This document shows, piece after piece, positions 14,633 through 33,165 of a stretch of 64,000 nt of DNA. The stretch covers positions 43,351 to 107,350 of the forward strand of contig CAYZIY010000004.1 of NCBI GenBank assembly GCA_964478715.1. Direction: 5' to 3'. Within the stretch, counting starts at the first letter, position 1. Each line of letters starts with the position of its first letter. The position numbers and the translations under genes are program-made. This DNA comes from an uncultured Planctomycetales bacterium. GTDB taxonomy: Bacteria; Omnitrophota; Gorgyraeia; Zapsychrales; JBDRMG01. The notes beneath the pieces are model-generated. The model saw nothing but the letters and a program-made list of their open reading frames with translations, had not been told where the DNA came from and ran no database searches.

Positions 14633-14633
14633 A

Positions 14634-15896: not shown

Positions 15897-15945
15897 TGAT
15901 TTCACCTCCTATGAAAAACCATAACAACATTCATTAGCTTTTTGA

Positions 15946-16152
15946 TTACGTACCGTTCTTAGGCGACAAGGGCCGCGAACCGGCCAAACGATTGGCCATG
16001 GTCGACATACCATTAGCTGTTGACCCAACGGTATTCTCCAGAGCACTTTGGAATAATCCGCCTTCAACCATAACACCAATAATCACAATCACAACGCCCG
16101 TAATCAAGATAACGTATTCCAGCGTACTTTGTCCTTTTCTCTTTTTTCTCAT
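15946..16152 (-). CDS. flp: Flp-family pilin paralog 2. Start refined to MRKKRKGQ…
   Basis: MRKKRKGQSTLEYVILITGVVIVIIGVMV. RBS GGAGGTG (plus-strand 16160-16166) lies 9 nt upstream. Confidence 0.65.
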   Translation of the reverse strand: MRKKRKGQSTLEYVILITGVVIVIIGVMVEGGLFQSALENTVGSTANGMSTMANRLAGSRPLSPKNGT

Positions 16153-16210
16153 TTTAGTTTTCACCTCCTGCAAAGTCGTCTTGATAACCCTGATTACTCA
16201 GGGATGAATG

Positions 16211-16366
16211 TCACTTATCTCTGGCTTCCTCTTCTATCATTTTCTGGGTTGCCTGAATCGAACGATAGGCATAGGTGCTCATGGCGATCACAGCTGCAGA
16301 AACAATAGCAACAACGATAGAGTATTCAATCAGGTTTTGTGCTTGTCTTTTTTTTATTCGTCTCAT
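16211..16366 (-). CDS. flp: Short classical Flp pilin paralog 1 (51 aa). It is under 60 aa and so is absent from the ORF track.
   Basis: Hand-translated reverse complement: MRRIKKRQAQNLIEYSIVVAIVSAAVIAMSTYAYRSIQATQKMIEEEARDK*. Leader A/QNLIEY. RBS AGGGAG is upstream. This is the first gene of the array. Confidence 0.6.
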   Translation of the reverse strand: MRRIKKRQAQNLIEYSIVVAIVSAAVIAMSTYAYRSIQATQKMIEEEARDK

Positions 16367-20177: not shown

Positions 20178-22334
20178 TTAAGCGTTTTTGGAGAAGATTG
20201 ATTTTTTGATATTGATCCCGCGCCGCACAAAATCTTCATAGCAAATAGGAACATAGCCTGTGGGCCGATAGTCTCCGAGAACCATTCCGTTTTCACCGAT
20301 TCCTTTTTGCGCGAAAACAAAGACATCTTTTAAATCGAGTTCGCCCGAGCTTAACATCCCGCAGACCTCGGTGATACCGGTAATTTTTCTGGTCCCATCA
20401 GAAAACCGGGACACATGAACAATTAAATCAATCGCGGTAGAGATCATTTCATACATGGCGCGGATCGGCAATTCCACCCCGCTTAAAAGCATCATCGAGC
20501 TCATGCGGATCAAAACATCGCGGGTAGAATTCGCATGCAAAGTTGTTAAACTGCCGTCGTGACCGGTGTTCATGGCCTGAAGCATGTCCAGAATTTCAGG
20601 ACCGCGGCACTCGCCGATAATAATGCGATCGGGACGCATGCGCAAGGTATTGATGAACAAATCGCGGATCGATACCCGCCCTCTGCCTTCCACGTTAGGC
20701 GGCCGGGATTCCAAACGGGCCCAATGACTTTTCTTAAGTTTTAGCTCAGCCGCGTCCTCGATGGTAATAATGCGCTCCTCATCGGGAATAAATTGGGAGA
20801 TGACATTCAAAAGGGTTGTCTTACCCGCACCGGTTCCGCCGGAAACAACAATATTTTTCCGCGATAAAACAGCCGCCTGGATAAAATCCGACATCGAGAG
20901 AGTCAAACTTTTAAACTGATGCATCAGATCATCGATAGTGTAACGTTCCTGGCCGAATTTTCGGATGGTAAGCATCGGCCCGCCCAGAGAAAGCGGCGGG
21001 ATGATCGCATTAATCCGCGATCCATCAGGCAAACGCGCGTCCACCATCGGAACAGACTCATCGATCCGCCGGCCCAAAGGCGCGATAATCCGCTCGATCA
21101 CGCTGCGGACCTGACCATTAGAGATAAACTTCTTGCTCGTCAAAACCAGTCTTCCGTTTTTTTCAATATAGATCTCATCTTTATTATTGACCATAATATC
21201 GGTAATTTCATCATCGGCCAGAAGGTCTTCCAGGGGGCCCAAGCCCAGTGTCTCATCGGCGATTTCTTTGATCAATCGTTTTCTCTCTTCGTGAGAGGCA
21301 ATCATGGCGCCGGCTTCCTGAATTAAGAGTTCCCCGACGATCTTTTCGGTAGTGGTGCGCAAGGCTCTGGCTTTTTGGGGGTCATTCAAACTCTCGGCAG
21401 ATATATTACGCAAATCGAGTTTATCAACCAGCTTTTCGTGGATGCTTTTTTTGAGCTTGGATATCTCATCTTGCTGTTTGCTGTAGGGCGTAATTTCTTT
21501 GGCGGCTTCGCTGAGTCCAAATTTCTTCCAAAATTCATCGACCTGCGGAAGATCCTGGGTCGAACGTAATTTTCCGATCTCGGTTCCCGCGACAAAAAAT
21601 TCCGGCTTGGTCAGCTCTAATGCCAGCTTCTTGAACGATTCGCTCACCTTAGCCTTGGGGCTGTCGATCACGCAAGGCACGCCGCGGTTTAATGCCATCC
21701 CTACAGCGCGCCCGTCGGAAGGAAGATGCGCCACAATTTCGCAGGGCAAGGCTGAGCTCACTTCCTGCCAGGCCACCCCCCCGCGGGATTCCGAGCGGTT
21801 TAAAATGATCTTAACCATTTTTAAGGGAAAATGGAGGCTCTGCAAAATATCCAGACTCCAGCGGGTCTGATAAACCGAAAGGATATCGGGAGTGACCACA
21901 AGAAGAATTAAATTGGAATGATCAAAAATCGTCACCAATGTTTCCGAGAAGGCCTTGCCGACATCCATGACCAGATAGTCGTATCCGGCGGCCGCGCTTT
22001 TTAAAAACGGCTTGATATTATCGGGTGTGATCAATCCCACCTGGCGGGTATGGGTCACGCCGGGCAGAAAATCTAAACCCGAAGTGTGTGAAACAACATG
22101 TCTTTTGATGATCTCGGGATTGACGGTATCTTTGAGTTGAGAAAAGAGGTCCACCGCCGCGTAGCGGGGAGTGACATTCAGCATCCGGGCCATGTCTTGG
22201 CCGGCCTGAAAATCAAAATCCACCAACAAAACTTTATGGCCTGTCAAAGCCAGAGAAACAGAAAGATTAACGGATGTGAATGTTTTTCCCACTCCGCCTT
22301 TATTGCTAAAAACAGAAATCGTTCGCGCGCTCAT
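20178..22334 (-). CDS. cpaEF: Fusion protein: a CpaE/TadZ-like ParA/MinD ATPase domain (N-terminal about 250 aa) plus a CpaF/TadA secretion ATPase (C-terminal about 460 aa).
   Basis: N-terminal deviant Walker A SVFSNKGGVGKTFTSVNLSVSLA. The C-terminal half has the T2SSE/VirB11-type Walker A VVSGGTGAGKTTLLNVIS, a Walker B/Asp box (RIITIEDAAEL) and His box (MNTGHDGSLTTLHANS). One uninterrupted 718-codon ORF. Confidence 0.85.
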   Translation of the reverse strand: MSARTISVFSNKGGVGKTFTSVNLSVSLALTGHKVLLVDFDFQAGQDMARMLNVTPRYAAVDLFSQLKDTVNPEIIKRHVVSHTSGLDFLPGVTHTRQVGLITPDNIKPFLKSAAAGYDYLVMDVGKAFSETLVTIFDHSNLILLVVTPDILSVYQTRWSLDILQSLHFPLKMVKIILNRSESRGGVAWQEVSSALPCEIVAHLPSDGRAVGMALNRGVPCVIDSPKAKVSESFKKLALELTKPEFFVAGTEIGKLRSTQDLPQVDEFWKKFGLSEAAKEITPYSKQQDEISKLKKSIHEKLVDKLDLRNISAESLNDPQKARALRTTTEKIVGELLIQEAGAMIASHEERKRLIKEIADETLGLGPLEDLLADDEITDIMVNNKDEIYIEKNGRLVLTSKKFISNGQVRSVIERIIAPLGRRIDESVPMVDARLPDGSRINAIIPPLSLGGPMLTIRKFGQERYTIDDLMHQFKSLTLSMSDFIQAAVLSRKNIVVSGGTGAGKTTLLNVISQFIPDEERIITIEDAAELKLKKSHWARLESRPPNVEGRGRVSIRDLFINTLRMRPDRIIIGECRGPEILDMLQAMNTGHDGSLTTLHANSTRDVLIRMSSMMLLSGVELPIRAMYEMISTAIDLIVHVSRFSDGTRKITGITEVCGMLSSGELDLKDVFVFAQKGIGENGMVLGDYRPTGYVPICYEDFVRRGINIKKSIFSKNA

Positions 22335-22340
22335 AAGAAC

Positions 22341-24047
22341 CTATTGATCTAATCGGTAAACAATCGGTATGCTCAGGGTCAGCTCTGAAAAACCGCTTTT
22401 TTTCGGAAAGCCGTCATAAGGAGAAAGCTCTTTGACAAGGTTCAAAGCATCCTGATCGAATAATTCATGTCCGGAGGACTCCTGAACGCGAACAGTGCTT
22501 AAAGAACCGTCTCTTTTGAGGTGCAGGGACAATTTGACGGTTCCGCTCAAGCCCAATTCTCGAGCTTGGGACGGATAAATAATTCTACGGGCAATTTTTC
22601 TCTGAACTGCCCGGGCATAAGGCATCAATTCGCTGGGGATGGTCACAGAGTAAACCGGTTGCTCCATACCCGATATTCCCCGGGGGGTCATTACTTTTTT
22701 CCCGCTCTGCGGTAAAACAGCCTGAACAGGTCTAATCCGCCCAGGCATCATGATTTCCTCTCCCTTGGCGTACACAGGAGGTTCCAGGCGTTCATCCAGA
22801 AGACTTAGATTAAGAGGATATTCATTGGAATAAGATTCTCTCTCACCCTGACGTAGAATGCTGGGGGATATTGTAATAACGAGCTCGGTATCCGTGTCAT
22901 TCGAGCGGGTCTTTTTGCGAAACAGTAAACCCACAACAGGAATATCGCTTAAGAAAGGCACTCTTTCAAGAGTCTCGCCACGATTTTCTTTAATCAAACC
23001 AGCAATCACAATGGTTTCATTTTCTTTCACGTAAAGGCTGGTCTCTGTGTTGCGGGTTGTAAAAGCGGGCTGCCCGCTGTAATTGGTAGATCGGTCAATG
23101 TCACTGACTTCGATGTTAAGATTCAGTTCGATCGCATCCTTACCGTAAATGGTCGGCTGGATATCGATACCCACCCCGTAATCCTTAAAGGTCACATCCT
23201 GCTGAGAGGCACCGCTCGATGAAATCGATGTGGTCACAATAGGAACCTCGCCGCCGACCAGGAAATTGGCATCGCGGCCGCTGCGCACCACCAGCTTGGG
23301 GCGCGACAAAACCCGGGCCTTGCCTTCGTTGACCAAAGCGTTTAGCGTGGTTTGGATCGCGGTCGAACGGGCAAAATCTCCGAGCTTAAAGATATTGCCG
23401 AAATTCTCGATATGACCCGAAGGCACCGTCTCGTTGTAGGTGAGAGCATCGGTCCAGTCGATACCGAGTGTCTCGCTGTATGTTCCCGTGAGCTCGGTTA
23501 TTTGCGCGTCGATCTGCACCAGATCGTTCGTACTCTCTTGCTTGACCAAATTCATCACCACCATAAAAAACGGATCGATGATGCGTTCAAATTCCAACAA
23601 ATCTGTTGGGGAAACCTCTCCGGTGGCAATGATCTTGCCTTCCTTGCGGTCAATCTCCAAATCAATGCCCTTGAGATTGTCTTTCTCCATCAAATTCTCA
23701 ATACGTGTTTTCACCGAACCCAATTCGCGGTCGGCCACATGGATATCAATAGTCCGCTTCCCGTAGCGATCCCAAATGTAAAGTGTGGTATCGCCGGCGT
23801 TTCGGCCGATAATGAGAATTTTATCATCTTCCATTTCGACGATATCGATGACGCCCGGAATCGTGATAGAAACGCGAAAAAGTTCATAAGCCCGGATGTT
23901 TTCTAAGTCTCCCCGGGTCAGATAAACTTCATCGTCCATCAACTCGGTAAAAGTAAAAGCCTGGGCGCTGCGATGAAAAACAAATACACTGCCCGTCGCT
24001 AGAAGAATCAAAATGCCGATCGTTAAGACTGTTTTATTTTTAAACAT
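22341..24047 (-). CDS. cpaC: Tad secretin CpaC/RcpA with a fused C-terminal TonB_C domain.
   Basis: Signal peptide MFKNKTVLTIGILILLATGSVFVF. Secretin core …PKLVVRSGRDANFLVGGEVPIVTTSISSSGASQQDVTFKDYGVGIDIQP…. The C-terminal about 95 aa …RIIYPSQARELGLSGTVKLSLHLKRDGSLSTVRVQESSGHELFDQDALNLVKELSPYDGFP… matches the TonB C-terminal consensus (YP..A…G.eG.V.v.f.I..dG.v…v..SSG…LD.aAl). Confidence 0.8.
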   Translation of the reverse strand: MFKNKTVLTIGILILLATGSVFVFHRSAQAFTFTELMDDEVYLTRGDLENIRAYELFRVSITIPGVIDIVEMEDDKILIIGRNAGDTTLYIWDRYGKRTIDIHVADRELGSVKTRIENLMEKDNLKGIDLEIDRKEGKIIATGEVSPTDLLEFERIIDPFFMVVMNLVKQESTNDLVQIDAQITELTGTYSETLGIDWTDALTYNETVPSGHIENFGNIFKLGDFARSTAIQTTLNALVNEGKARVLSRPKLVVRSGRDANFLVGGEVPIVTTSISSSGASQQDVTFKDYGVGIDIQPTIYGKDAIELNLNIEVSDIDRSTNYSGQPAFTTRNTETSLYVKENETIVIAGLIKENRGETLERVPFLSDIPVVGLLFRKKTRSNDTDTELVITISPSILRQGERESYSNEYPLNLSLLDERLEPPVYAKGEEIMMPGRIRPVQAVLPQSGKKVMTPRGISGMEQPVYSVTIPSELMPYARAVQRKIARRIIYPSQARELGLSGTVKLSLHLKRDGSLSTVRVQESSGHELFDQDALNLVKELSPYDGFPKKSGFSELTLSIPIVYRLDQ

Positions 24048-24069
24048 AAAGGACCCTCTTTTTGTTTGT

Positions 24070-24906
24070 TTATCTTAACCCCTGAAAAATACTATCCTCA
24101 TAAAGTTCAATCGTTGACGGCTTGGGCCGGGGCCGTTTATCGCTAACGTCTTCTTCGAAGTCGACCTCATCGGGATCCTGGTAACCAATGTCCAGCCCTT
24201 GCGCATTATTGACATAATTCGAAAATGCCTCCCAGTCGCTGGGCGGCAAAATATAAGCACGCGAATCTACCGAGGAGCGCATAAAAAGCTGAAGCTTGCC
24301 GTTTTTGGAAGCAAAAGTCAAAAGACCAGCTTCCTGCGGATCCATGGCGAAGGTAATTACCATCTGATTACCGCTGGTCTTGGGCTTTCCGCTGATTACC
24401 CCGTCAACAGCTAATACCAAAGCATTTTGAAAAAGCGTAAAAGACATTAAATCCTTCTTGGAAGGATTGTAAGGATCGGTGGGAACATAAACATGAGAAA
24501 CAATATCCACTCTGTCTCCCGGCATCACCAAGCCGCCGACGGCAGCCAGGCGATCAACCATTACGGTCACAGCCCGCATGCCCTGCGGGGTAACGGCCGC
24601 CAAAGATTCGGCTGAAGCCATAACGGGCTTTCCCGCCCCGGAATCGATTTGCTTGAGACGATTGTCGAGATTGCGCAATTGATGCGCCAGATCATGATCA
24701 TTTTGTTCCAGCATGCGAAATTGCTCGGCCAGCCTGGCCGCTTCTTTCTCGCGGAAAATGGTGGCAAACTTTTCCGTTTTCTGACCAACGGTGGAATTGA
24801 TATAAATATTCGTTAAAATCACCGCCGCGAAAGCGGTCGCGACCGCCACAATTCCCAAAACCAGCTTCTTTTTATCCAATGTTTTAAAATCAATAGCCAT
24901 GAGCAC
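24070..24906 (-). CDS. cpaB: Flp pilus assembly protein CpaB/RcpC.
   Basis: N-terminal TM LVLGIVAVATAFAAVILTNIYI. Central …GMRAVTVMVDRLAAVGGLVMPGDRVDIVSHV… is typical of the CpaB SAF-like domain. It lies directly upstream of the secretin. Confidence 0.75.
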   Translation of the reverse strand: MLMAIDFKTLDKKKLVLGIVAVATAFAAVILTNIYINSTVGQKTEKFATIFREKEAARLAEQFRMLEQNDHDLAHQLRNLDNRLKQIDSGAGKPVMASAESLAAVTPQGMRAVTVMVDRLAAVGGLVMPGDRVDIVSHVYVPTDPYNPSKKDLMSFTLFQNALVLAVDGVISGKPKTSGNQMVITFAMDPQEAGLLTFASKNGKLQLFMRSSVDSRAYILPPSDWEAFSNYVNNAQGLDIGYQDPDEVDFEEDVSDKRPRPKPSTIELYEDSIFQGLR

Positions 24907-24914
24907 CTTCTTTT

Positions 24915-25871
24915 TTATTCGAGCAGGTCTTCATTCGTTTTAACCTCGATCTCTTCTTCCAATTTATTAACATAATTCAAAACGGCCTGTTGCTGCCTTT
25001 CAAGGGTCAGCTGGTCGATCAACCAGTCTTTGACTTCTGAAAACGGCTGCGGCTCTCCACCCCGTTTTTCTTCGAGTTTAATAATCGTATATCCTTTGGG
25101 GCCTTTGAACACACTGCTGAGCATCCCTTCTTCAAGGGTTAATAGCGCAACCATTAATTTCTCATCGGTGATGTCGGCTTCATTCACATAGCCGAGATCT
25201 CCGCCTTCAGCGGCCGAGTCGCTGATCGAACGCTCCCGGGCCAGCGCGGCAAAGTCGGCGCTTTGCAAAAGCTGGATACTGATCTCATTGGCACCCTGCT
25301 GGGTGGCGGTCACAATTTCGCGGATCTTGTATTCGGTGGGTTCGGTGAAAAAATCCTTGTTTTCATTATAAAATTCACGGGCTTCAAGTTCCGAAACATC
25401 AATTTCCTCAGTAATTTTGGTGATCACTTCCTGGACCAGAAGCGTTCTTTTAAATTCGTCAATCGCCTCCTGAATCCGCGGATCATCGGCTACGCCGCTG
25501 CGCTTGGCATCTTGAACAAACATCTCCTGGCGAATCAATTCCTGAAGGATCAGTCTTTTATTTTCCGCGCTTGCAACATCAGCATCGGGCAAAAGCTCTT
25601 TGATGGCATCGAGCCGTTCATTAAATTCTCGGAGGCTGATCGTCCAGCTGCCCACTTTAGCCAGGGTGTCGGGCCCCATCACAGTCTCTTTGGGCTGATC
25701 AGGCTGATCACCGGCAGCCGGCGCTTTATCATCTGCGTTTTTCTTTAATGAAGGAAAGAAGTCTTCTAAAAATGTCAGCTTATCACAACCGCTTAGCGTC
25801 AAGGAAACCGCAAAAAAACAAATGACCAATGAAGAGATGAAAAATTTCTTTATAGTTTGACCGGATTTCAT
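24915..25871 (-). CDS. SurA/PrsA-like lipoprotein with a PpiC-type (parvulin) peptidyl-prolyl isomerase domain.
   Basis: Lipobox LTLSGC. The parvulin region is …SADFAALARERSISDSAAEGGDLGYVNEADITDEKLMVALLTLEEGMLSSVFKGPKGYTIIKLEEK…. Confidence 0.65.
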   Translation of the reverse strand: MKSGQTIKKFFISSLVICFFAVSLTLSGCDKLTFLEDFFPSLKKNADDKAPAAGDQPDQPKETVMGPDTLAKVGSWTISLREFNERLDAIKELLPDADVASAENKRLILQELIRQEMFVQDAKRSGVADDPRIQEAIDEFKRTLLVQEVITKITEEIDVSELEAREFYNENKDFFTEPTEYKIREIVTATQQGANEISIQLLQSADFAALARERSISDSAAEGGDLGYVNEADITDEKLMVALLTLEEGMLSSVFKGPKGYTIIKLEEKRGGEPQPFSEVKDWLIDQLTLERQQQAVLNYVNKLEEEIEVKTNEDLLE

Positions 25872-25979
25872 ATTCCCTCCTTAAATAAATTTTTTATATA
25901 TAATTAATTATAATAAGCTTGATGACCGAAAACAAGGGCTTTATCACGAATTTACCAAAAGTTCATTTTTTTGGATTTA

Positions 25980-26222
25980 TTAAGCAGGCCGAAGAGGACA
26001 ATTACTGCAATTCTCGCCGGGGCCGCAGCCATCCCCCAGGCAATCGTCAGGACAATTCACGCAGGTCTCACCCGGCTCGCAGCCATTACCCGGACAGCTA
26101 CATTTGATGCCCCAGCAATCGACTAAACAACTCGCGCCGTCTTCATCTTCTTCGCAAACCCAGTTCCCGCATGTTCCTCCTGCTCCATCATGAGGAAGAC
26201 AGCGCCTAAAAAACGCACACAA
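25980..26222 (-). pseudogene. Out-of-frame 3' module of the upstream Cys-rich pilin-fusion paralog. It is homologous to the in-frame C-terminal module of the 469-aa paralog.
   Basis: MCAFFRRCLPHDGAGGTCGNWVCEEDEDGASCLVDCWGIKC…CLGDGCGPGENCSNC aligns with GFPHDGEYGTCGNWVCDPGEDCENCIVDCWGVACNC…CLGDGCGPGENCGNC of 27338..28747. It has no leader peptide of its own and sits 8 nt past the stop of 26231..27298 in a different frame. Confidence 0.45.
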
Positions 26223-26230
26223 AAAGCTTC

Positions 26231-27298
26231 TTATTTGAGGCAGTTACAATTTTTATAATTAGAATTTACGCAAGTATTATAAGACATATTATCGCTAAAC
26301 GTACATATGGTACGATTATCAAATCTTTTGACACACTTTTTCCAATAATAGCTAACGTACAATTTTGTGCATCTATTATCATCAAGGCAATTACTTTTGT
26401 TTCGGCTAGAGCAAGGTGTGGGCTGTGGTCCTTGTGGGGATTGCTTGCAGACAAAAGGGCAAGGGTCAGTCTTACACATTCCAAGAGCATCACAACATTT
26501 TGTCACGCCTCTTTCCCAAATACATCCACGGTCTACGCAATCTTCTTGGTCGAAGAGACATCCACAGTCACATTCGCAGCACTCCCCTACTTCATCGCAT
26601 TCAGGTGAGCAAATCAAGTCTCCACACCGTCCGCAGTCCTGGCAACAGTTGTACGCATCTTCCCCATCTTCACATACACCGTTAGGACATTGCGGCACAA
26701 TGCAATCTCCACTTAAATTAGTAGGCTCCGCCGGAGTTCCCGGCGGCCAGGGAGGGTTGGCCGGGTCAATGCTGGCTGTGTCCACATTATAACTATCTTC
26801 GCCATTGTCCACGCAGCATAAACCATCATCAGCTTCCCAGCAGTTATCCGCGCAGCAGGTATATTTATCCTCTCCGCAAGCCGCGTCGCAAACCCCGTCA
26901 ATCACACAGTTGCTGGCACAACAGTCCTGAGCGCACCATTTTGCGCTGGTGCGATCGTCTTCGTCTAACCCGGAACAACATACATCGCAGGGATTACCGT
27001 ATTGATCCACTCCACAGCCGTCATTGCAGTCTTCACAGCAGTATTCATCCGTGCTGCAGTCATCTTCGATACCGGGAGAGCATACTCCGTCACCGCAAAC
27101 ATCTTGAGGGGTTAATCCAGGATTTCCCGGTTTTTTGATCGGACCTTTGATGGAATCTTCACTGGCATAATCGAAATTTTTTAACAGGGCATTGATGGAG
27201 CGGATCAGGTAAGGGCCCATCAGGATGGCACCGGCCATCACCAGGGTGATGACGGTTGAAAATTCAAGGATAGACTGGGCTTTTTTTCCGTGGCTCAT
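26231..27298 (-). CDS. Flp/TadE-type prepilin leader fused to a large Cys-rich extracellular domain (paralog A, 355 aa, apparently frameshift-truncated).
   Basis: N-terminus MSHGKKAQSILEFSTVITLVMAGAILMGPYLIRSINALLKN (A/QSILEF leader plus TM), then DDCSTDEYCCEDCNDGCG…CCADNCWEADDGLCCVDNGED…PANPPWPPGTPAEP…. Roughly 20% of residues are Cys. Confidence 0.6.
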   Translation of the reverse strand: MSHGKKAQSILEFSTVITLVMAGAILMGPYLIRSINALLKNFDYASEDSIKGPIKKPGNPGLTPQDVCGDGVCSPGIEDDCSTDEYCCEDCNDGCGVDQYGNPCDVCCSGLDEDDRTSAKWCAQDCCASNCVIDGVCDAACGEDKYTCCADNCWEADDGLCCVDNGEDSYNVDTASIDPANPPWPPGTPAEPTNLSGDCIVPQCPNGVCEDGEDAYNCCQDCGRCGDLICSPECDEVGECCECDCGCLFDQEDCVDRGCIWERGVTKCCDALGMCKTDPCPFVCKQSPQGPQPTPCSSRNKSNCLDDNRCTKLYVSYYWKKCVKRFDNRTICTFSDNMSYNTCVNSNYKNCNCLK

Positions 27299-27337
27299 AT
27301 TTTTGAGAAAAACAATCGTCCTAATGGATAGAATGCA

Positions 27338-28747
27338 TCACCAATGCACAACGCATTCCCCGCAATCTTGGGGGCAGGTCGTGCAGCCTTCACCGTGATC
27401 ACTGCGGCAATCCCCGTCTCCGCAGCAATCGGTGCAGTCTTCAGGGCAGGTGAAACAAGTTTCAGCATTTTCGGATCTGCAATCCCCATCGCCGCAACAA
27501 GGATAGTCAATATTTCCATAATTACAGTCTTGCGGGCAATTTCCGCAATTCTCGCCGGGGCCGCAGCCGTCTCCCAGGCAATCTTTAGAACAATTCACGC
27601 AGGTCTCGCCCAGCTCACAGATATCATTCCCACAGTTGCATGCTACGCCCCAGCAGTCTACAATACAATTCTCGCAATCCTCTCCTGGGTCGCAAACCCA
27701 ATTTCCGCAGGTTCCGTATTCCCCGTCATGAGGAAAACCGCACTTTGCAGAAAAACCGCCATGGGGATTAGCCATGCTAGTTACAAGCTGCCCATTTTCA
27801 CACCGCCAATCACCCATGCCCGGCCACGGCCCCTCTTGCACCCAAGTGGCATTACATTCCTCATAAGCTTGATTGCTATAAAGCTTATTTTTCTTAAGGC
27901 ATATTTGTGGAGGGCAACAGTAACTATCATTGGCACAGGTGTTTGTTACACCCACATCACAAAATTTAAACGTTCCATCATCATTAAGCTCAAACGGGTA
28001 TTCGCACCCATCAAACCAATTATGGTAAGGGTTTATAGTATCTCTGCCAGGGTTAACACACACTTTCCCATAAGAACGTTGTTGGCATTTTCCACAGCAG
28101 CAATCATCACTTGTTTCACAGGTCTCCCATTCTACCACGCAACCCAATGGACAATCATCACTTTGATCGGCAGGCTCCGCCGGAGTTCCCGGCGGCCAGG
28201 GAGGGTTGGCCGGGTCAATGTCGGCTGTGTTCTCATTATAACTATCTTCGCCATTGTCCACGCAGCATAAACCATCATCAGCTTCCCAGCAGTTATCCGC
28301 GCAGCAGGTATATTTATCCTCTCCGCAAGCCGCGTCGCAAACCCTGTCAATCACACAGTTGCTGGAACAACAGTCTTCGGGGCACCAGCTCAAGCTGGTA
28401 CGATCGTCTTCATCTAACTCATGACAACAGGTCGGAGAAGCCTCTCCTTCGGCATTGATTCCGCACCAATCACAGTCTTCGCAACAGTAATCTTCGCTGT
28501 CAGGATTGTCTTCTATCCCTCCGACGCATATTTCATCGCCGCAGACATACTCGGGTGGAATAAATTCATCGCTCCCCGGTTTTTTGAGGGGGCCCTTAAT
28601 GGCTTCTTCGGTGGCGATGTCGTAATTCTTTAACAGGGCATTGATGGAGCGAATCAGGTAGGGGCCCATCAGGATGGCACCGGCCATCACCAGGGTGATA
28701 ACGGTCGAGAATTCAAGGATAGACTGGGCTTTTTTTCCGTGGCTCAT
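27338..28747 (-). CDS. Flp/TadE-type prepilin leader fused to a large Cys-rich extracellular domain (paralog B, 469 aa, intact).
   Basis: The first 41 aa are identical to paralog A. It shares about 215 bp that are near-identical at the nucleotide level (28166-28380 versus 26727-26940) and ends with the GTCGNWVC…CGPGENCGNCPQDC…CGDGDCRSDHGEGCTTCPQDCGEC module. Confidence 0.65.
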   Translation of the reverse strand: MSHGKKAQSILEFSTVITLVMAGAILMGPYLIRSINALLKNYDIATEEAIKGPLKKPGSDEFIPPEYVCGDEICVGGIEDNPDSEDYCCEDCDWCGINAEGEASPTCCHELDEDDRTSLSWCPEDCCSSNCVIDRVCDAACGEDKYTCCADNCWEADDGLCCVDNGEDSYNENTADIDPANPPWPPGTPAEPADQSDDCPLGCVVEWETCETSDDCCCGKCQQRSYGKVCVNPGRDTINPYHNWFDGCEYPFELNDDGTFKFCDVGVTNTCANDSYCCPPQICLKKNKLYSNQAYEECNATWVQEGPWPGMGDWRCENGQLVTSMANPHGGFSAKCGFPHDGEYGTCGNWVCDPGEDCENCIVDCWGVACNCGNDICELGETCVNCSKDCLGDGCGPGENCGNCPQDCNYGNIDYPCCGDGDCRSENAETCFTCPEDCTDCCGDGDCRSDHGEGCTTCPQDCGECVVHW

Positions 28748-28856
28748 AAAATAACCTTTCTTTTTTAAGTTTAATATATAAAAGAAGAAAAATCAAACTT
28801 ATTAAAACGAGAATATGAAAAACCAAAAAATATAAAAATCTGAATAAAACCGCTTT

Positions 28857-29222
28857 TTAAAATAATGAATCGACCTCCCGGATCAGCTTATCGCTTTCGA
28901 CGGGCTTAATCAAGACTTTATCGAACCCAAAATGAAGCATTTTCTGGGCTTGATTCTTAGAGAGAACTCCGGTCATCATGATCACCTTTGTATTTTTTAA
29001 ACTCTTGCTGGCTTTCAACTTTTGACAAAAATCGATTCCGCTTTCTTCATCTAGAAGGTAATAATCGACAAGCACAACATCCGGTTTATGCGCTTTGCAA
29101 ATGGTCCACGCCCCGGACACTTTTGAAGCGCAAAATACTTCCCAACCCGCTTCACTGAGAATTTCCGCAAAGCCTTTACGAATCGATTCCTCATCATCGA
29201 CAATTAAAATACTTTTGTTCAT
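28857..29222 (-). CDS. Single-domain response regulator (CheY-like receiver).
   Basis: SILIVDDEESIRKGFAEILSEAGWEVF…KPDVVLVDYYLLDEESGIDFCQKLK…VIMMTG. Confidence 0.75.
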   Translation of the reverse strand: MNKSILIVDDEESIRKGFAEILSEAGWEVFCASKVSGAWTICKAHKPDVVLVDYYLLDEESGIDFCQKLKASKSLKNTKVIMMTGVLSKNQAQKMLHFGFDKVLIKPVESDKLIREVDSLF

Positions 29223-29244
29223 TTTTGACCCGATGTCAACGACC

Positions 29245-32200
29245 TTAAGCCGCCTTTTTTAAGAAAAGCGGCAAAGTAATGATAAAGGTGCTCCCTTTGC
29301 CCCAAACGCTTTTGGCTTTGATCTGACCGCCGTGCTCCCGAATAATTCCCTGGCAAATAAAAAGGCCCAGCCCGGTTCCGCTTTTCTTTTTCGTCGTAAA
29401 AAAAGGATCGAAAATCTGATCCAGATGTTCTTTTTTGATTCCCTCTCCATTATCCTGAATGGTCAAGACGATCCGGTCTTCTTCTTGATCCGTTTTAACG
29501 AGAATCTCTCCCCGCTTGCCTTTCATGCTGTCTGCCGCGTTTAAGATAAGATTCAGCAGAACCTGATGTATTTGCTGCGGCCGGCATTCGATGGCGGGCA
29601 AAGGAGAAGCCCTCTCCGTTTTCAGTTTGATATTTTTGAGCCTCAGCTGGTGCTCAACCAGCTTCATTATTTTCTCAATAAGCTCATTAAGGTCAACCTG
29701 TGATTGTTTTTGATCAGGGGTTTTGTAAATATCCAATAATCTGGAAACAATCGATCGAATTTTCTCAATGTTGGCTTTAACCAAATCGTAATTTTTCTGT
29801 TTCTGATAATTTTTCGGCAAACCGGAGCGCATAATTTCCAGATGCGTCAAAATTCCCTGAAGGGGATTATTGATCTCATGGGCAATACTGGCCGAAAGCC
29901 GGCCCGTGGCGGCCAGGCGTTCGGACTGCCTGAGCTCGCGGGTCCTTTCATCGACCAGCTCTTCTAAATGCTGTCTGTAATTATCCAGCTCCCTTTCCTG
30001 TTTCTTTCTCCGGGTAATGTCTTCGGCAACACCTACCAGGCCGATAATCCGGCCCTGATCATCGCAGAGGGGAACCTTGATCGTGTGCAAAACATGCGCC
30101 CGGCCGTCCAGGGCCCTAAAGGGTTCTTCCGCAATATCCTGACGTTTTCCCGATTCGATCACCTTATGATCCACGAAAGCGGAGAAAGCTTTCTGTTCAT
30201 CGGGTCCGGCAGGACTTTTTTCAGTCAGCAAATTAATGAATTTTTCCGGTGCCACCCCGTAGTCGTTAGCCATTTTCTTATTAACCAGTAAAAATCGTGA
30301 CTTTTTATCTTTAACAAAAACCCATAGCGGCAGGTTATCAAAAACAGTCCGTAAAAGCGTCTCGCTGCGGCGCAGTGCCTCTTCGGCCTCTTTACGCTCG
30401 GTAATATCCCGAACACTGGCCCGATATCCCAGGATGGAGCCTCGATGATCCCTGACGGGCTGAGCGGAAATGGAGAGATAAAGGGAGTACCCGGCTTTGT
30501 TTTTGATCCGGAATTCTTCATCATTGATGATGTCACCCATCAGATATTTTTTGTAAAATTTCTCAACTTTTTCCTTATATTCGGGATAAACCAATTGACG
30601 CAAATCGATACGGCCCGAGTAGAAATCTTTAATCTCATATCCGGTAATCCTCTCCGCGGCCGGATTTATATACGCAATATTTTTTTCTTTATCACGATAC
30701 AATTCCCAGTCGTGGGTATAATCAAAAAACATTCGGAATTTGGCTTCCGAGGCCCGCAGAGCCTCTTCGGCCTTTTTGCGTTCGGTAATATCGATAGCCA
30801 ATTCAAATCGTACATCTCTTCCGTCAGGCCATTTGATAATCCGGTCAAAAATCATATAGTGTTTCTGGAGTTTCCGGTTATAGTATTCCCACTGATAAGT
30901 TTGGTTTCTATTTTTCAAAATGATTCTATTGGTGCAAAAAGGACAGGGTTTATCTAAACCCTGAAAAATGCGGTAACAGATTTTTCCTATCGGATTTTCC
31001 TGAAATGTTTCTTTGAGGAATTTATTAACAAAAAGAATTTTGTCGGTTTTGGGATCTGTTACATAAACGATTTCATTGATGCTGTCAAAAATGGACAACA
31101 ATTGAGCGCGTTCAAACGCGAGGGCTTTCTGCAATCTTTCGCTTTCCGTTATATCGCAGATAATCGTCAAAACGGCAACGACTTTATTTTTCCGGTAAAC
31201 AGGGATTTTTCTGGTCTCTGTCGTGAAACTGCGATTATTTAATGTTGATTTCTCCTGGGTGACAAGCATCTTGCCGCTCTGAAAAACTTCTCTGTATTCC
31301 CGCTTGATTTTTTTGGGCAAAAATGAAAAAACCTCGAAAACATATTTTCCAACAATATTTGCAGGCAGCCCTAACCGTTTATTCCAGCGGATGAATTCCT
31401 GATTGATTAACTGAATCCGCAAATTCTTGTCAACAACATGCACCGCGTCCAGCATGGCATCGATCGTCATCCGGTATTGCTGCTCCGATTCTCTTAACTT
31501 ATCTTCGGTTTCTTTTCTTTCAATGGCGCTGGCGAAAATATCGCCGGCAATTTGGAGGATAGCCACGACTTCATCTGACCAGTCTCTTTCTTTTAGCACG
31601 GAATCAAACCCGACAAAACCCAGAATCCGGTTTTCGGCCTTCATGGGCACGCAGAGCAATGACTGAATAGAAGCTCGTTGAAATTCTCTTTTTTCAGAGG
31701 AGGCCTGAGCCGGCAAGTCTTTCACCCGCAGAAGATTAACCACTTGATTGCCTTTAATTCGCTTAATGAACCAGGGAAAAGATTTGAGAGGTATATTCTG
31801 GAGCCTGGCCTTTTGAGAAGCGATTTCGCGGGCACACCATTCACTGGTATTATTCATAATATTTTGATCATCCGAAAAAAGAAATGTGTAAGCTCGATCA
31901 ACTTGAAGAAAACAGCCAATCTTCCGTAAGGCCTGATTGACCGCTCTGTTTAAATGCCGGGAATCCAAATTGATGAATTTAGCCGAAATAGCTACCAGCA
32001 ATGAATTCAATTTATTCCGGTAATCTGAAAACTGTTCCAGTTTTTTTGCTTCTGTTATATTTCGGGCAATGATCATGGCCGCGGTGATTTTCTCCTGCCG
32101 GTAGACCGGCATACAGCGTGTCGTATAAAAATATCCCTGGCTGTCAGCATATTCGGAATGAATCGTGACTCCCTGTTGAAAGGTCTTTTTAATATCGCGA

Positions 32201-33165
32201 TAAAAGCGTCGGTGATCCTTCTTAGGTATAAAACTCTCTAAGCTTAGACCTACCAAGTCTTCTTTGGAAGGAAGCCCGGGGCGGGACCGATTAACATAGG
32301 TTATGCTCCCTCTGGAGTCAATCATGATCACAAAATCGGGAAGGTTCTCTAGAAGAGACGCCAGCTTCTGCTCGCTTTCTTTGTAATCTGTCTGCGCGAG
32401 TTTCTGCGGCGTCATATCATAAACCATGCTCTGGAAACCAAATAGTTTTCCGTTTTTCTTTAACGGTGTGCTGCGCAGATTCACATAAAGAGCCCTGTTT
32501 TTTCTGGTAAGACAACGGATTTCATGAAAATCACCGGCCTTTTTATTCGTGACAGCTTTGCCAAAAAGGCCCCGCATTCGATCCTTTTCTTGCGGATGCA
32601 GCAAGGCGGAAAAATTTTTATTAAGAAAATCCTGCGGCTGGCCCTCAAACATTTTGCAAAACTGACCGCTAACAAATGTGATGCGCCCCTGAAGATTCAC
32701 GCGACAAATGCCTGCTAAAATATTGGCATAAAGCTCTTCGTATTGCTTTTCCGCTTCCCGCTTGCTTTCTTGAGCCCGCTTACGTTCAATAGCATGGCCG
32801 ATAATCCGCTTCATCATTCGGTTGTTGATCTGGTCTTTGACGACATAATCCTGAGCTCCCCGACGAACCGCCTGAAGAGCAAAAGTATCATCCTCATAGC
32901 TGCTTAAAACGATAATGGGAATCTGCGGAAAACTTTGATGGAGGCGGTCAAAGACTTGTAATCCGGACTGTTTTTGACCGTAAAGATCCAGGAAAAGAAT
33001 ATCGGCTTTAAAATTCTGAAGATAATCCAGAGCTTCATCGAGAATGGGTTTGATCCGAAAGTCAACTGAAAAAGCTCTGTCTTCCGTGCAAATTTTTTTG
33101 ATTAACTGAGCATCGCGGGCATCATCTTCAATGAAAAGAATGCGGATGGGGGATTTGCTTAACAT
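29245..33165 (-). CDS. Hybrid sensor histidine kinase: N-terminal receiver, multiple PAS/GAF domains, HisKA and HATPase_c.
   Basis: Receiver domain (ILFIEDDARDAQ…DLYGQKQSGLQ), several PAS-like repeats (…TERKKAEEALRASEAKFR…, …TERKEAEEALRRSE…), H-box RLSASIAHEINNPLQGI and G-boxes IQDNGEGI…KSGTGLGLFICQGIIREHGG. Confidence 0.8.
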   Translation of the reverse strand: MLSKSPIRILFIEDDARDAQLIKKICTEDRAFSVDFRIKPILDEALDYLQNFKADILFLDLYGQKQSGLQVFDRLHQSFPQIPIIVLSSYEDDTFALQAVRRGAQDYVVKDQINNRMMKRIIGHAIERKRAQESKREAEKQYEELYANILAGICRVNLQGRITFVSGQFCKMFEGQPQDFLNKNFSALLHPQEKDRMRGLFGKAVTNKKAGDFHEIRCLTRKNRALYVNLRSTPLKKNGKLFGFQSMVYDMTPQKLAQTDYKESEQKLASLLENLPDFVIMIDSRGSITYVNRSRPGLPSKEDLVGLSLESFIPKKDHRRFYRDIKKTFQQGVTIHSEYADSQGYFYTTRCMPVYRQEKITAAMIIARNITEAKKLEQFSDYRNKLNSLLVAISAKFINLDSRHLNRAVNQALRKIGCFLQVDRAYTFLFSDDQNIMNNTSEWCAREIASQKARLQNIPLKSFPWFIKRIKGNQVVNLLRVKDLPAQASSEKREFQRASIQSLLCVPMKAENRILGFVGFDSVLKERDWSDEVVAILQIAGDIFASAIERKETEDKLRESEQQYRMTIDAMLDAVHVVDKNLRIQLINQEFIRWNKRLGLPANIVGKYVFEVFSFLPKKIKREYREVFQSGKMLVTQEKSTLNNRSFTTETRKIPVYRKNKVVAVLTIICDITESERLQKALAFERAQLLSIFDSINEIVYVTDPKTDKILFVNKFLKETFQENPIGKICYRIFQGLDKPCPFCTNRIILKNRNQTYQWEYYNRKLQKHYMIFDRIIKWPDGRDVRFELAIDITERKKAEEALRASEAKFRMFFDYTHDWELYRDKEKNIAYINPAAERITGYEIKDFYSGRIDLRQLVYPEYKEKVEKFYKKYLMGDIINDEEFRIKNKAGYSLYLSISAQPVRDHRGSILGYRASVRDITERKEAEEALRRSETLLRTVFDNLPLWVFVKDKKSRFLLVNKKMANDYGVAPEKFINLLTEKSPAGPDEQKAFSAFVDHKVIESGKRQDIAEEPFRALDGRAHVLHTIKVPLCDDQGRIIGLVGVAEDITRRKKQERELDNYRQHLEELVDERTRELRQSERLAATGRLSASIAHEINNPLQGILTHLEIMRSGLPKNYQKQKNYDLVKANIEKIRSIVSRLLDIYKTPDQKQSQVDLNELIEKIMKLVEHQLRLKNIKLKTERASPLPAIECRPQQIHQVLLNLILNAADSMKGKRGEILVKTDQEEDRIVLTIQDNGEGIKKEHLDQIFDPFFTTKKKSGTGLGLFICQGIIREHGGQIKAKSVWGKGSTFIITLPLFLKKAA

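What the first reader, a model, noticed from the sequence alone, without database searches (positions are those of the whole stretch)
25980..28747. Tandem Cys-rich pilin-fusion paralogs with mosaic near-identical DNA tracts (gene conversion) and a frameshifted 3' module in paralog A
Paralogs A (26231-27298) and B (27338-28747) share two near-identical nucleotide blocks: the first about 125 bp (leader plus TM) and an internal block of about 215 bp (26727-26940 versus 28166-28380, with only a few mismatches). Their other regions have diverged. This pattern is typical of recent duplication with ongoing gene conversion. In A the reading frame stops at 26231. The homolog of B's terminal GTCGNWVC…CGPGENC module continues in another frame (25980-26222). 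This implies an indel near 26225-26240: a pseudogenising frameshift, an assembly error, or conceivably a switchable site. The near-identical antisense ORFs in the track (26713-26901 and 28132-28350, both starting MTGFATRLAERINIPAAR) are a by-product of this duplication, not genes.
Basis: seen in the sequence. Interest (0 to 1): 0.65.

Follow-up and report, generated by a model that had tools for sequence, protein, structure and literature searches.

The report
Duplicated cysteine-rich Tad pilin genes
Two neighbouring genes at the head of a Tad (tight-adherence) pilus operon, probably from an Omnitrophota bacterium, encode pilin-like proteins with large cysteine-rich outer parts; they have recently copied stretches of DNA into one another, and a leftover piece of a similar gene sits out of frame behind the second one, which is ordinary gene-family evolution in a protein family that has not been described.

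Summary
A (26231-27298, 355 aa) and B (27338-28747, 469 aa), both on the minus strand, share two near-identical DNA tracts. These are 27180-27299 (95.8% identical) and 26723-26916 (97.4%, including a perfect 111-bp run). Between them, synonymous sites are saturated. Tract 2 has no synonymous differences (permutation P<=5e-5), so recent gene conversion is well supported. A third, older tract lies in the fragment behind A. That fragment (25980-26243) is homologous to an internal module of B and lies in the -1 frame relative to A.

Both genes open a Tad/Flp pilus operon: PpiC, CpaB/RcpC, secretin, TadZ-TadA, small pilins, TadB/C. They carry a Flp/class-III-like leader (KKAQSILEF) plus a hydrophobic helix. 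Single-copy relatives sit at the same position in three other loci; the one named source is an Omnitrophota MAG.

I think a frameshift inside A is less likely than a remnant of a B-type gene. A's stop falls at the homology breakpoint. A is colinear with a 330-aa relative that lacks the module. No repeat tract, slippery site or RNA structure is present. The fragment still looks like coding sequence, so it lost its gene recently. Reads or close strains would settle this; none were available.

The parts
27338..28747 (-). Paralog B: 469-aa modular Flp-like prepilin. Layout: leader and helix, Cys-rich N region, unique middle, GTCGNWVC module, then two CGDGDC repeats.
   Evidence: ORF. Identical to P0001, an NCBI protein on a 155,887-bp contig. 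No Pfam or NCBIfam hit. 64 Cys. AlphaFold predicts only an N-terminal helix, residues 4-50, at pLDDT 52-66; the rest is below 50.
26231..27298 (-). Paralog A: 355-aa modular Flp-like prepilin that ends in TAA at 26233-26231.
   Evidence: ORF. Identical to P0002. Colinear with P0012 over residues 1-269 (E 1e-21) and with P0160 over residues 1-269 (E 2e-20). 50 Cys.
25980..26243 (-). Out-of-frame (-1) copy of B's internal GTCGNWVC...CGPGENC module. Most likely the 3' remnant of a B-type gene. It ends in TAATAA, 108 nt before the PpiC gene.
   Evidence: 76.9% nt identity to 27537-27741 with no gaps. Protein similarity extends to about 26216. The frame is open for 87 codons while the other two frames have 3 and 7 stops. 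Cys conserved at 13 of 14 positions. 5' part dS 1.03 and dN 0.30; 3' part dS 0.29 and dN 0.08.
27180..27299 (-). Tract 1 (leader plus hydrophobic helix), equal to 28629-28748 in B. 95.8% identical.
   Evidence: 6 synonymous and 0 non-synonymous differences in codons 1-40, dS 0.24.
26723..26916 (-). Tract 2, a recent gene-conversion tract, equal to 28172-28365 in B. 97.4% identical, with perfect runs of 111 and 49 bp.
   Evidence: 0 synonymous and 6 non-synonymous differences over codons 128-193. Third codon positions are identical at 57 of 57 sites from 26891 to 26723. Permutation P<=5e-5. No unusual RNA fold (z -0.83). No Rfam match.
25999..26071 (-). Tract 3, an older exchange inside the fragment, equal to 27537-27609 in B. 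About 89% identical.
   Evidence: dS 0.29, against 1.03 in the 5' part of the fragment.
26917..27179 (-). Variable segment 1 between tracts 1 and 2, old divergence. Corresponds to 28366-28628 in B.
   Evidence: pS 0.82 (saturated) and dN 0.33, with one-codon indels.
26231..26722 (-). A-specific body. The first part (to about 26430) is homologous to the middle of P0012 and P0160. The last ~200 nt are AT-rich (27-33% GC) but still Cys-rich.
   Evidence: No similarity to B or to anything else in the window. No database homolog of this stretch other than A itself. GC profile. Colinearity.
27742..28171 (-). B-specific middle, unrelated to A's middle.
27338..27536 (-). B's C-terminal CGDGDC...C.TCP.DC repeats, which have no counterpart behind A.
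   Evidence: Homology to the fragment stops at 27537 / 25999. The repeat type is shared with many unrelated secreted proteins, P0003-P0011.
27299..27337 (-). 39-nt B-A spacer. It has no Shine-Dalgarno-like sequence and no terminator, so A is probably co-transcribed with B.
20178..25871 (-). The operon downstream. PpiC-type PPIase lipoprotein 24915-25871. RcpC/CpaB 24070-24906. Secretin with a TonB_C domain 22341-24047. TadZ/CpaE-TadA/CpaF fusion ATPase 20178-22334.
   Evidence: Pfam hits. The same order occurs in L001, and partly in L002 and L006.

Best explanation
A and B are two tandem members of a small, undescribed family of modular Flp-type (Tad / type IVc) pilin-like proteins. Each has a short class-III-like leader and a hydrophobic N-terminal helix, followed by 300-420 residues of disulfide-rich modules.

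Function (inferred, not shown). A prepilin peptidase cuts the leader. The helix inserts the protein into the Tad filament, probably as a low-abundance or tip subunit. The cysteine-rich part is displayed as an adhesin.

Origin of the pair. The family gene is normally single-copy and is the first gene of the operon, just upstream of PpiC-CpaB-secretin. In this lineage there are two full copies, with different middle and C-terminal modules.

Mosaic (shown). The two copies exchange DNA by non-reciprocal homologous recombination (gene conversion). Tract 2 was exchanged very recently. Tracts 1 and 3 were exchanged earlier. The segments in between are anciently diverged.

The fragment (inferred). The out-of-frame module behind A is most likely the 3' end of a B-type gene. 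That gene lost its 5' part when a deletion or replacement placed A's body, with its own stop codon, in front of it. The loss is recent, because the fragment still has an intact frame, conserved cysteines and a low dN/dS.
For: Pilin identity.
- The leader KKAQS-ILEF fits the G/XXXXEY-type Flp / class III motif. The same motif heads at least eight small ORFs (51-143 aa) in the locus.
- Several of those ORFs hit PF04021 Class_IIIsignal (best 23.2 bits, cutoff 23.7) or PF04964 Flp_Fap weakly.
- A's N-terminus matches the pilin at 14498-14602 with tblastn E 5.7e-5.
- AlphaFold predicts a helix over residues 4-50 as the only structured element.
- The locus encodes RcpC/CpaB, secretin, a TadZ-TadA fusion and two T2SSF (TadB/C) proteins.

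Family and synteny.
- P0012 is in L001, an Omnitrophota MAG. P0160 is in L006. A 5'-cut ORF in L002 is the third relative.
- All three sit directly upstream of the PpiC homolog. The gene is single-copy in L001 and L006; in L002 the contig end cuts it, so copy number there is unknown.

Conversion.
- Tract 2 has 0 synonymous differences, next to a stretch with pS 0.82.
- It contains a perfect 111-bp run, P<=5e-5.
- This stretch is not conserved in P0012 or P0160, so deep constraint does not explain the identity.

Remnant reading.
- The homology breakpoint lies within about 15 nt of A's stop.
- A is colinear with relatives that lack the module, and its tail length matches P0160 (86 vs 87 aa).
- Cysteine counts are even for A (50) and odd for the fusion (65).
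- L002 shows that a B-type C-terminus (CGNWAC...CVNCPDDC, in frame) is what normally precedes PpiC.
- The fragment ends in a double stop, 108 nt before the PpiC gene.

Recent loss.
- dN 0.30 at dS 1.03, 13 of 14 Cys kept, and no indel or stop in 87 codons.
Against: - A and B themselves hit no pilin HMM, even at E<=10.
- The cleavage-site residue is Ala, not Gly.
- They are far larger than any described Flp pilin.
- No prepilin peptidase was found among the window ORFs scanned.
- No expression, processing or filament data exist.
- A single-base insertion in CAAAT (26237-26233) would make one 439-aa ORF, so a real or artefactual 1-nt deletion remains possible.
- The similarity of A's AT-rich tail to P0160's tail is not significant (z 1.6). 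A's natural end is therefore argued from length and position only.
- No close relative or strain variant was found in any collection, so the order of events is inferred from one genome.
Confidence: 0.6

Rival explanations
1. Genuine frameshift pseudogenisation of A. A was a 439-aa protein (N region, A body, GTCGNWVC module). A 1-nt deletion (CAAAAT to CAAAT at 26237-26233) created the TAA and cut off the last module.
For: The two frames overlap in the open state at 26243-26234, so one inserted base fuses them. The fragment keeps coding signatures, namely low dN/dS, 13 of 14 Cys and no stops, as expected after a recent lesion.
Against: The lesion would have to fall by chance within about 15 nt of the A/B homology breakpoint, roughly 1-3% for a random position. 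Fusability is itself not informative, because only 5-8 codons need to lack a stop. The fusion would have 65 Cys. The relative P0160 ends at the equivalent length without the module. The fragment also lacks B's last 66 residues.
Confidence: 0.17
2. Assembly or sequencing error. The real genome has one more base near 26234-26243, and A is a single longer gene.
For: The source is a metagenome-assembled contig (P0001 and P0002 are each on a single 155,887-bp NCBI contig). Repeats of 111 bp inside tandem paralogs are difficult for assemblers.
Against: The only run in the fusable window is AAA, which is not a typical error site. All the arguments against the genuine-frameshift reading also apply. 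The flanking unique sequence joins B to A and A to the fragment without anomaly.
Confidence: 0.07
3. The fragment is functional. Either it is joined to A by programmed -1 frameshifting or termination-reinitiation (a TTG lies 8 nt after A's stop), or it serves as a silent donor cassette for conversion into B, like the pilS copies of Neisseria.
For: Coding constraint is preserved in a piece that has no normal start. There is evidence of past exchange with B, tract 3 with dS 0.29. It is co-transcribed within the operon, with no terminator found.
Against: There is no X XXY YYZ heptamer in the last 90 nt of A, and no stimulatory structure (z +0.43). A reinitiated 80-aa product would lack any export signal. 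There is only one partial copy, no G4 motif within 25000-30000, and no further copies in the window.
Confidence: 0.07
4. The near-identical tracts reflect strong constraint, from protein function, an overlapping ORF or an RNA element, rather than gene conversion.
For: Tract 1 encodes the leader and helix, is 100% identical in protein, and has only synonymous differences. Same-strand alternative-frame ORFs overlap tract 2.
Against: Tract 2 has no synonymous change at about 40 synonymous sites, while its neighbours are saturated. The stretch is not conserved in P0012 or P0160. There is no RNA family match and no unusual fold. The differences that do exist are all amino-acid changing.
Confidence: 0.04
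5. A and B are not pilins. They are ordinary membrane-anchored or Sec-secreted cysteine-rich proteins that happen to be encoded next to a Tad operon.
For: There is no pilin HMM hit for A or B. They are far larger than Flp pilins. No peptidase gene was seen nearby.
Against: The Q-S-x-x-E-[FY] motif plus helix is shared with the locus's small pilins, and it is conserved in all full-length family members (invariant K6, Q8, S9, I10 and E12). The position at the head of the Tad operon is fixed in four independent loci.
Confidence: 0.12

Closest known systems
Flp / Tad (type IVc) pilins and the Tad secretion-assembly locus (Flp, RcpC/CpaB, RcpA/CpaC, TadZ, TadA, TadB, TadC)
   Same: The genomic context is the same. 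There is a short positively charged leader, a conserved Glu at position +5 after the putative cut site followed by an aromatic residue, and then a ~20-residue hydrophobic helix.
   Different: Flp pilins are 50-90 aa; A and B are 355 and 469 aa, with 14% cysteine. The cut-site residue is Ala instead of Gly. PF04964 and PF04021 do not hit A or B. The TadZ-TadA fusion and the secretin-TonB_C fusion are also unusual for Tad loci.
Modular type IV pilins (Streptococcus sanguinis PilB and PilC; Raynaud et al. 2021, PMC8179133)
   Same: The design is the same: a pilin module at the N-terminus with a bulky extra module grafted on. That paper proposes the extra module is displayed by the filament for adhesion. 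It also notes that many such pilins carry modules not yet covered by database signatures.
   Different: Those pilins were defined by the IPR012902 N-methylation motif of type IVa-like pilins and have a globular pilin domain. Here the pilin part is only a Flp-like helix, the system is Tad, and the modules are disulfide-rich repeats with no known fold.
Concerted evolution / gene conversion between tandem surface-protein paralogs. Neisseria pilE/pilS is the extreme case (from my own knowledge of that system).
   Same: Conserved tracts alternate with variable segments. Sequence transfer is non-reciprocal. A promoterless partial copy lies next to expressed copies.
   Different: Only two full copies and one fragment are present. 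No G4 motif was found. There is no evidence for programmed or frequent switching.
TadG / TadE / TadF pseudopilins (from my own knowledge)
   Same: They are large pilin-like proteins encoded in tad loci. TadG carries an adhesive domain.
   Different: A and B carry the Flp-type leader of the locus's small pilins, not the TadE/G-type N-terminus. Candidate TadE/G-like genes lie elsewhere in the window (12468-13910 and 8622-12149), but these gave no Pfam hit and are unconfirmed.

Membership tests
Flp/Tad type IVc pilin | N-terminal prepilin leader with the G/XXXXEY processing motif | tested here: inconclusive
   A and B read KKA-QSILEF: Ala for Gly and Phe for Tyr. The relative P0012 reads KKA-QSIIEY. 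The motif is shared with at least eight small pilin ORFs in the locus.
Flp/Tad type IVc pilin | Hydrophobic alpha-1 helix directly after the leader | tested here: met
   The sequence is STVITLVMAGAILMGPYLI. AlphaFold predicts a helix over residues 4-50 at pLDDT 52-66, the only part above 50.
Flp/Tad type IVc pilin | Match to the family HMMs (PF04964 Flp_Fap or PF04021 Class_IIIsignal) | tested here: not met
   No hit for A or B, or for A's first 56 residues (identical to B's over residues 1-41), even at E<=10. The neighbouring small pilins reach 23.2 bits (cutoff 23.7) for PF04021 and 17.9 bits (cutoff 32.2) for PF04964.
Flp/Tad type IVc pilin | Small size, about 50-90 aa mature | tested here: not met
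   355 and 469 aa.
Flp/Tad type IVc pilin | Encoded in a tad locus with RcpC/CpaB, secretin, TadA ATPase and TadB/C | tested here: met
   Pfam hits. Synteny is conserved in L001, L002 and L006.
Flp/Tad type IVc pilin | Cleavage by a TadV/CpaA prepilin peptidase and incorporation into the filament | not testable with these tools
   No Peptidase_A24 gene was found among the window ORFs scanned. Biochemistry is needed.
Modular type IV pilins (Raynaud et al. 2021) | An N-terminal pilin module fused to an additional module not specific to pilus biology | tested here: met
   Leader and helix are followed by 300-420 residues of Cys-rich modules. The C-terminal CGDGxC...CP.DC repeats also occur in many unrelated secreted proteins, P0003-P0011.
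Modular type IV pilins (Raynaud et al. 2021) | IPR012902-type N-terminal methylation motif (the criterion used in that survey) | tested here: not met
   No N_methyl-type Pfam hit. The leader is of the Flp / class III type.
Gene conversion between paralogs | Tracts with far fewer synonymous differences than their flanks, longer than chance allows | tested here: met
   Tract 2 has 0 differences at 39.5 synonymous sites, against pS 0.82 in the adjacent segment. The 111-bp perfect run has P<=5e-5.
pilE/pilS-type antigenic variation | Several silent partial cassettes plus a G4-forming initiator near the expressed gene | tested here: not met
   There is one partial copy only. No G4 motif lies in 25000-30000 on either strand.
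Programmed -1 ribosomal frameshift | An X XXY YYZ slippery heptamer in the overlap, with a downstream stimulatory structure | tested here: not met
   No heptamer in the last 90 nt of A. The fold of 26150-26290 has z +0.43.
Phase-variable (contingency) locus | A homopolymer or short tandem repeat at the frame-switch point | tested here: not met
   The fusable window 26243-26234 (CTGCCTCAAA) has only AAA. The nearby A5, T5 and T6 runs lie outside it.
Diversity-generating retroelement target (VR/TR pair) | Mismatches confined to adenines of one copy, with a reverse transcriptase nearby | tested here: not met
   The five tract-2 mismatches are G/A, T/A, G/A, A/G and G/A (A copy/B copy), so they are not one-directional. 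None of the neighbouring genes that gave a Pfam hit is a reverse transcriptase; several nearby ORFs gave no hit at all. Both copies are in-frame coding sequence.

The most novel reading that the evidence does not exclude
The A/B pair plus the promoterless, frame-intact fragment form a small cassette system. Conserved tracts serve as recombination anchors to reshuffle the cysteine-rich adhesin modules of a Tad pilus tip protein. This would let a putatively host-dependent or predatory Omnitrophota cell vary what its pilus binds. The fragment would be kept as a silent donor, which would explain its preserved coding signature.
Probability: 0.06. Interest if true: 0.75.

Novelty: new member of a known kind. 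Interest (0 to 1): 0.35.

Why it matters
Omnitrophota are uncultivated, mostly ultra-small bacteria, and their Tad pili have been put forward as tools for attaching to hosts or prey (PMC10066038). The genes studied here are the first genes of such a Tad operon. They are the most plausible candidates for the part of the pilus that touches the target: a Flp-type anchor carrying large disulfide-rich modules.

I found no database signature and no paper describing this family. It extends the idea of modular pilins to the Tad system and gives a concrete protein to test for target recognition. The duplication, the conversion tracts and the gene remnant are themselves ordinary evolutionary processes. 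They show that this gene is the fast-changing element of an otherwise conserved operon.

Tried and rejected
1. Close relatives, to settle the frameshift. Searches with B, with A's unique body plus the fragment, and with an N-terminal profile found only A and B themselves, P0012 and P0160. The genome-contig scan gave one distant locus. Two metagenome scans gave no close relative, only L002-L005. Exact-protein look-ups of A and B found no contig.

2. The one exhaustive HMMER search was wasted. The profile kept the Hint domain of P0012, so, apart from P0012, A and B themselves, the 150 listed hits matched the Hint domain region.

3. Structure prediction of B failed: mean pLDDT 31.5, with only the N-terminal helix credible. 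No fold search was run.

4. Pfam and NCBIfam gave nothing for A, B or the fragment. The PDB sequence search with A's N-terminal 56 residues gave nothing.

5. DGR, phase-variable repeat, programmed frameshift, G4/pilS-like system, RNA element and terminator/promoter explanations were each tested and not supported.

6. Homology between A's and B's middles was tested and not found. Homology between A's AT-rich tail and P0160's tail was not significant (z 1.6).

7. An AT-rich mobile-element insertion as the origin of A's tail was considered and rejected. The tail keeps 8 Cys in 63 codons, where my own calculation from base composition expects about 2.


Full report
OBSERVATION

A lies at 26231-27298 (355 aa) and B at 27338-28747 (469 aa), both on the minus strand and separated by 39 nt. 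An 80-aa ORF lies at 25980-26222 on the same strand.

blastn and the repeat finder agree on two registers:
- 27299-26723 vs 28748-28172, offset 1449, 82.6% identity.
- 26203-25999 vs 27741-27537, offset 1538, 76.9% identity, no gaps.

A codon-by-codon comparison shows a sharp mosaic:
- Codons 1-40 are 114/120 nt identical.
- Codons 40-128 are only 40-60% identical, apart from about 80% over codons 110-129 next to tract 2.
- Codons about 128-193 are nearly identical. Window 26723-26916 has 5 mismatches in 194 nt, with perfect runs of 111 and 49 nt.

Shuffling the alignment columns never gave a run longer than 62 in 20,000 trials. After 26722 / 28171 the two genes have no detectable similarity, at the DNA or the protein level, until the fragment.

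Four details need correcting:
- The B coordinates given for the internal block are about 10 nt off.
- The copied module is internal to B, not terminal. B has 66 more residues.
- The MTGFATRLAERINIPAAR ORFs are on the same strand as A and B, in another frame, not antisense.
- There is a third tract of raised identity at the 3' end of the fragment (25999-26071, about 89%).

WHAT THE GENES ARE

Neither A, B nor the fragment hits any Pfam or NCBIfam model. The context is nevertheless clear. Downstream on the same strand lie:
- a PpiC-type PPIase lipoprotein (24915-25871);
- RcpC/CpaB (24070-24906);
- a secretin with a C-terminal TonB_C domain (22341-24047);
- a ParA-like/T2SSE fusion ATPase, i.e. 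TadZ/CpaE-TadA/CpaF (20178-22334);
- a run of small ORFs of 51-123 aa, each starting with [KR]-x-[GA]-Q-[ST]-x-x-E-Y followed by a hydrophobic helix;
- two T2SSF (TadB/C) genes (6423-8170).

This is a Tad / type IVc pilus locus.

A and B begin MSHGKKAQSILEFSTVITLVMAGAILMGPYLI, which is the same motif. Several lines connect them to pilins:
- Several of the small ORFs come close to the Pfam Class_IIIsignal threshold (23.2 vs 23.7 bits) or hit Flp_Fap weakly.
- A's N-terminus matches one of them by tblastn (E 5.7e-5).
- AlphaFold predicts a helix over residues 4-50 as the only semi-confident element of B. The rest of the model is unusable at mean pLDDT 31.5.

The remainder of both proteins is 14% cysteine (50 and 64 Cys). 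B's C-terminus consists of CGDGxC...C.xCPxDC repeats, which occur in many unrelated secreted proteins.

I therefore read A and B as modular pilins in the sense of Raynaud et al. 2021 (PMC8179133), but built on a Flp-type anchor. Processing, incorporation into the filament and adhesion are all inferred, not shown.

THE FAMILY ELSEWHERE

Only three relatives were found.
- P0012 (469 aa) is named by NCBI as a Hint domain-containing protein of a Candidatus Omnitrophota MAG. Its locus L001 has the order histidine kinase, receiver, (one inserted ATPase gene), one pilin fusion, PpiC, CpaB, secretin-TonB_C, TadZ-TadA.
- P0160 (330 aa, locus L006) is again followed by the PpiC homolog.
- L002 is a 4.9-kb metagenome contig with a 5'-cut Cys-rich ORF followed by PpiC and CpaB. 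Its C-terminal part carries, in frame, a KCGNWACESGENC...CQAGETCVNCPDDC module plus CGNG repeats, like B.

The gene is thus normally a single first gene of the operon. The duplication is specific to this lineage.

A is colinear with P0012 and with P0160 over residues 1-269 (E 1e-21 and 2e-20). B is colinear with P0012 only over residues 1-96, but shares its C-terminal architecture with L002. The two copies therefore represent two different body plans of the family.

GENE CONVERSION

Nei-Gojobori counts:

| Segment | Synonymous differences | Non-synonymous differences | Rates |
|---|---|---|---|
| Codons 1-40 | 6 | 0 | dS 0.24 |
| Codons 40-128 | 40 | 56 | pS 0.82 (saturated), dN 0.33 |
| Codons 128-193 | 0 | 6 | pS 0, dN 0.04 |

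Third codon positions are identical at 57 of 57 sites from 26891 to 26723.

Alternative causes of the identity were checked:
- Constraint on the protein cannot remove synonymous differences.
- The stretch is not conserved in P0012 or P0160.
- There is no Rfam match and no unusual RNA fold (z -0.83).
- The mismatches do not follow the one-directional adenine pattern of a diversity-generating retroelement.

Recent non-reciprocal exchange between A and B is the well-supported explanation for tract 2.

Tract 1 (dS 0.24) and the 3' part of the fragment (dS 0.29) look like older exchanges of similar age. For tract 1, strong purifying selection on the leader and helix adds to the identity.

THE OUT-OF-FRAME MODULE

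The fragment's frame is -1 relative to A. It is open from 26243, and A's TAA is at 26233-26231. Only a change within 26243-26234 (CTGCCTCAAA) could fuse the two. One extra A in CAAAT would give ...NCNCLKIRSFLCAFFRRCLPHDGAGGTCGNWVC..., a 439-aa protein.

Against a programmed or switchable site:
- the fusable window holds no repeat tract;
- there is no X XXY YYZ heptamer in the last 90 nt of A;
- the RNA around it folds no better than shuffled sequence (z +0.43);
- no terminator or promoter stands out.

Against a simple indel inside a once-continuous A:
- Protein-level homology to B resumes at about 26216. The A-specific sequence therefore ends within about 15 nt of A's stop. A random lesion would land there about 1-3% of the time.
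- A is colinear with relatives that lack the module. P0160 ends 87 residues after the colinear block, as A does after 86.
- A has an even cysteine count and the fusion an odd one.
- The fragment is also cut at its 3' side relative to B and ends in TAATAA, 108 nt before PpiC. That spacing is in the same range as, though shorter than, the 160 and 176 nt seen in L001 and L002.
- L002 shows that a B-type C-terminus is what normally sits in front of PpiC.

The fragment is nevertheless not old junk. It has no stop or indel in 87 codons, while the other two frames have 3 and 7 stops. It keeps 13 of 14 cysteines, against 33 of 54 other residues. Its dN is 0.30 at dS 1.03 in the 5' part, where lifelong neutrality on one branch would give roughly 0.55 by my own estimate. 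It was part of a translated gene until recently.

The simplest history that fits all of this has two steps. A B-type gene stood next to PpiC. Then a deletion or replacement put A's body, with its own stop, directly in front of that gene's last module.

My rough weights are:
- about 0.6 for this remnant reading;
- 0.17 for a genuine 1-nt deletion in A;
- 0.07 for an assembly error;
- 0.07 for a functional role, either recoding or a silent donor cassette.

One feature is left unexplained. A's last ~200 nt are 27-33% GC, far below any other segment of the family genes (37-60%), yet they keep 8 Cys in 63 codons. This tail is coding but compositionally foreign.

COMPARISON WITH KNOWN SYSTEMS AND NOVELTY

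The mechanism of tandem duplication, gene conversion and a truncated relic is textbook evolution of surface-protein genes. The protein family is the less ordinary part. I found no HMM, no solved relative, and no paper linking Flp pilins with cysteine-rich modules. The Omnitrophota papers discuss Tad machinery, not these genes.

By design the proteins are modular pilins. By strict membership they fail the size and HMM criteria of Flp pilins, and they fail the IPR012902 criterion used to survey modular pilins. I therefore file them as working like modular pilins, and as a new member of that broad kind rather than a new kind.

Interest is moderate to low (0.35). The finding is useful as a candidate target-recognition subunit for Omnitrophota Tad pili, but it is not surprising in mechanism.

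LIMITS

No reads and no close relatives were available. One exhaustive search was lost to a badly built profile. The structure prediction was uninformative. No prepilin peptidase was found in the ORFs I scanned, and not every ORF in the window was scanned.

Noticed in passing
window 13930-16366 (-) and 8221-8652 (-): There are at least eight further small ORFs (51-143 aa) with the same [KR]-x-[GA]-Q-[ST]-x-x-E-Y leader plus hydrophobic helix. This is an unusually large set of Flp-like pilins in one Tad locus. Examples are 16211-16366 (51 aa, weak Flp_Fap hit) and 15946-16173 (75 aa, Class_IIIsignal at 23.2 bits).
   Followed up: partly
window 1-5824 (-): An open reading frame of more than 1,941 codons starts near 5824 and runs off the left end of the window, directly downstream of TadB/TadC. 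A 2026 preprint (10.64898/2026.06.07.730766) reports that giant Omnitrophota proteins are commonly flanked by secretion or pilus genes, in one locus a Tad-pilus assembly cassette.
   Followed up: partly
L001 8001-9410 (protein P0012): In another Omnitrophota MAG, the single-copy ortholog of A and B carries a Hint / intein-like domain (residues ~295-430) between its Cys-rich modules and a final CGNGHC repeat. This hints at autoproteolytic processing of a pilin-anchored protein. The profile search that included it retrieved thousands of Hint-domain proteins.
   Followed up: partly
window 22341-24047 (-); also L001 11331-13016: The Tad secretin carries a C-terminal TonB_C domain (PF03544, E 1.6e-14). 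This fusion is not typical of RcpA/CpaC. The L001 homologue has a similar length and sequence through to its C-terminal end, but no domain scan was run on it.
   Followed up: no
window 20178-22334 (-); also L001 13158-15323: A ParA/MinD-like (TadZ/CpaE-type) domain and the T2SSE ATPase (TadA/CpaF) are fused into one 718-aa protein. A near-identical-length 721-aa homologue is present in L001.
   Followed up: no
window 24915-25871 (-); L001 9570-10496; L002 2037-2975; L006 1230-1580: A PpiC-type peptidyl-prolyl isomerase lipoprotein with a SurA-like N-terminal region always sits between the cysteine-rich pilin gene and CpaB. It could be a dedicated foldase for the pilin or its modules.
   Followed up: no
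window 26231-26430 (-): The last ~200 nt of paralog A are 27-33% GC, against 44.6% for the window and 37-60% for other segments of the family genes. They nevertheless encode 8 Cys in 63 residues, so this is a compositionally foreign but coding tail of unknown origin.
   Followed up: partly
window 16806-19199 (-), 12468-13910 (-), 8622-12149 (-): Three large proteins inside the Tad locus (797, 480 and 1175 aa) have no Pfam hit. The 797-aa one has a long Glu/Lys-rich N-terminal half. The 480- and 1175-aa ones have N-terminal hydrophobic segments that could be TadE/TadG-type pseudopilin anchors.
   Followed up: no
window 28857-33165 (-); L001 1411-6643: A receiver-only response regulator and a very large hybrid sensor kinase (1306 aa here, 1554 aa in L001) lie immediately upstream of the pilin genes in both genomes. 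The kinase has an N-terminal receiver and many PAS-like repeats. This suggests the Tad operon is under two-component control.
   Followed up: no
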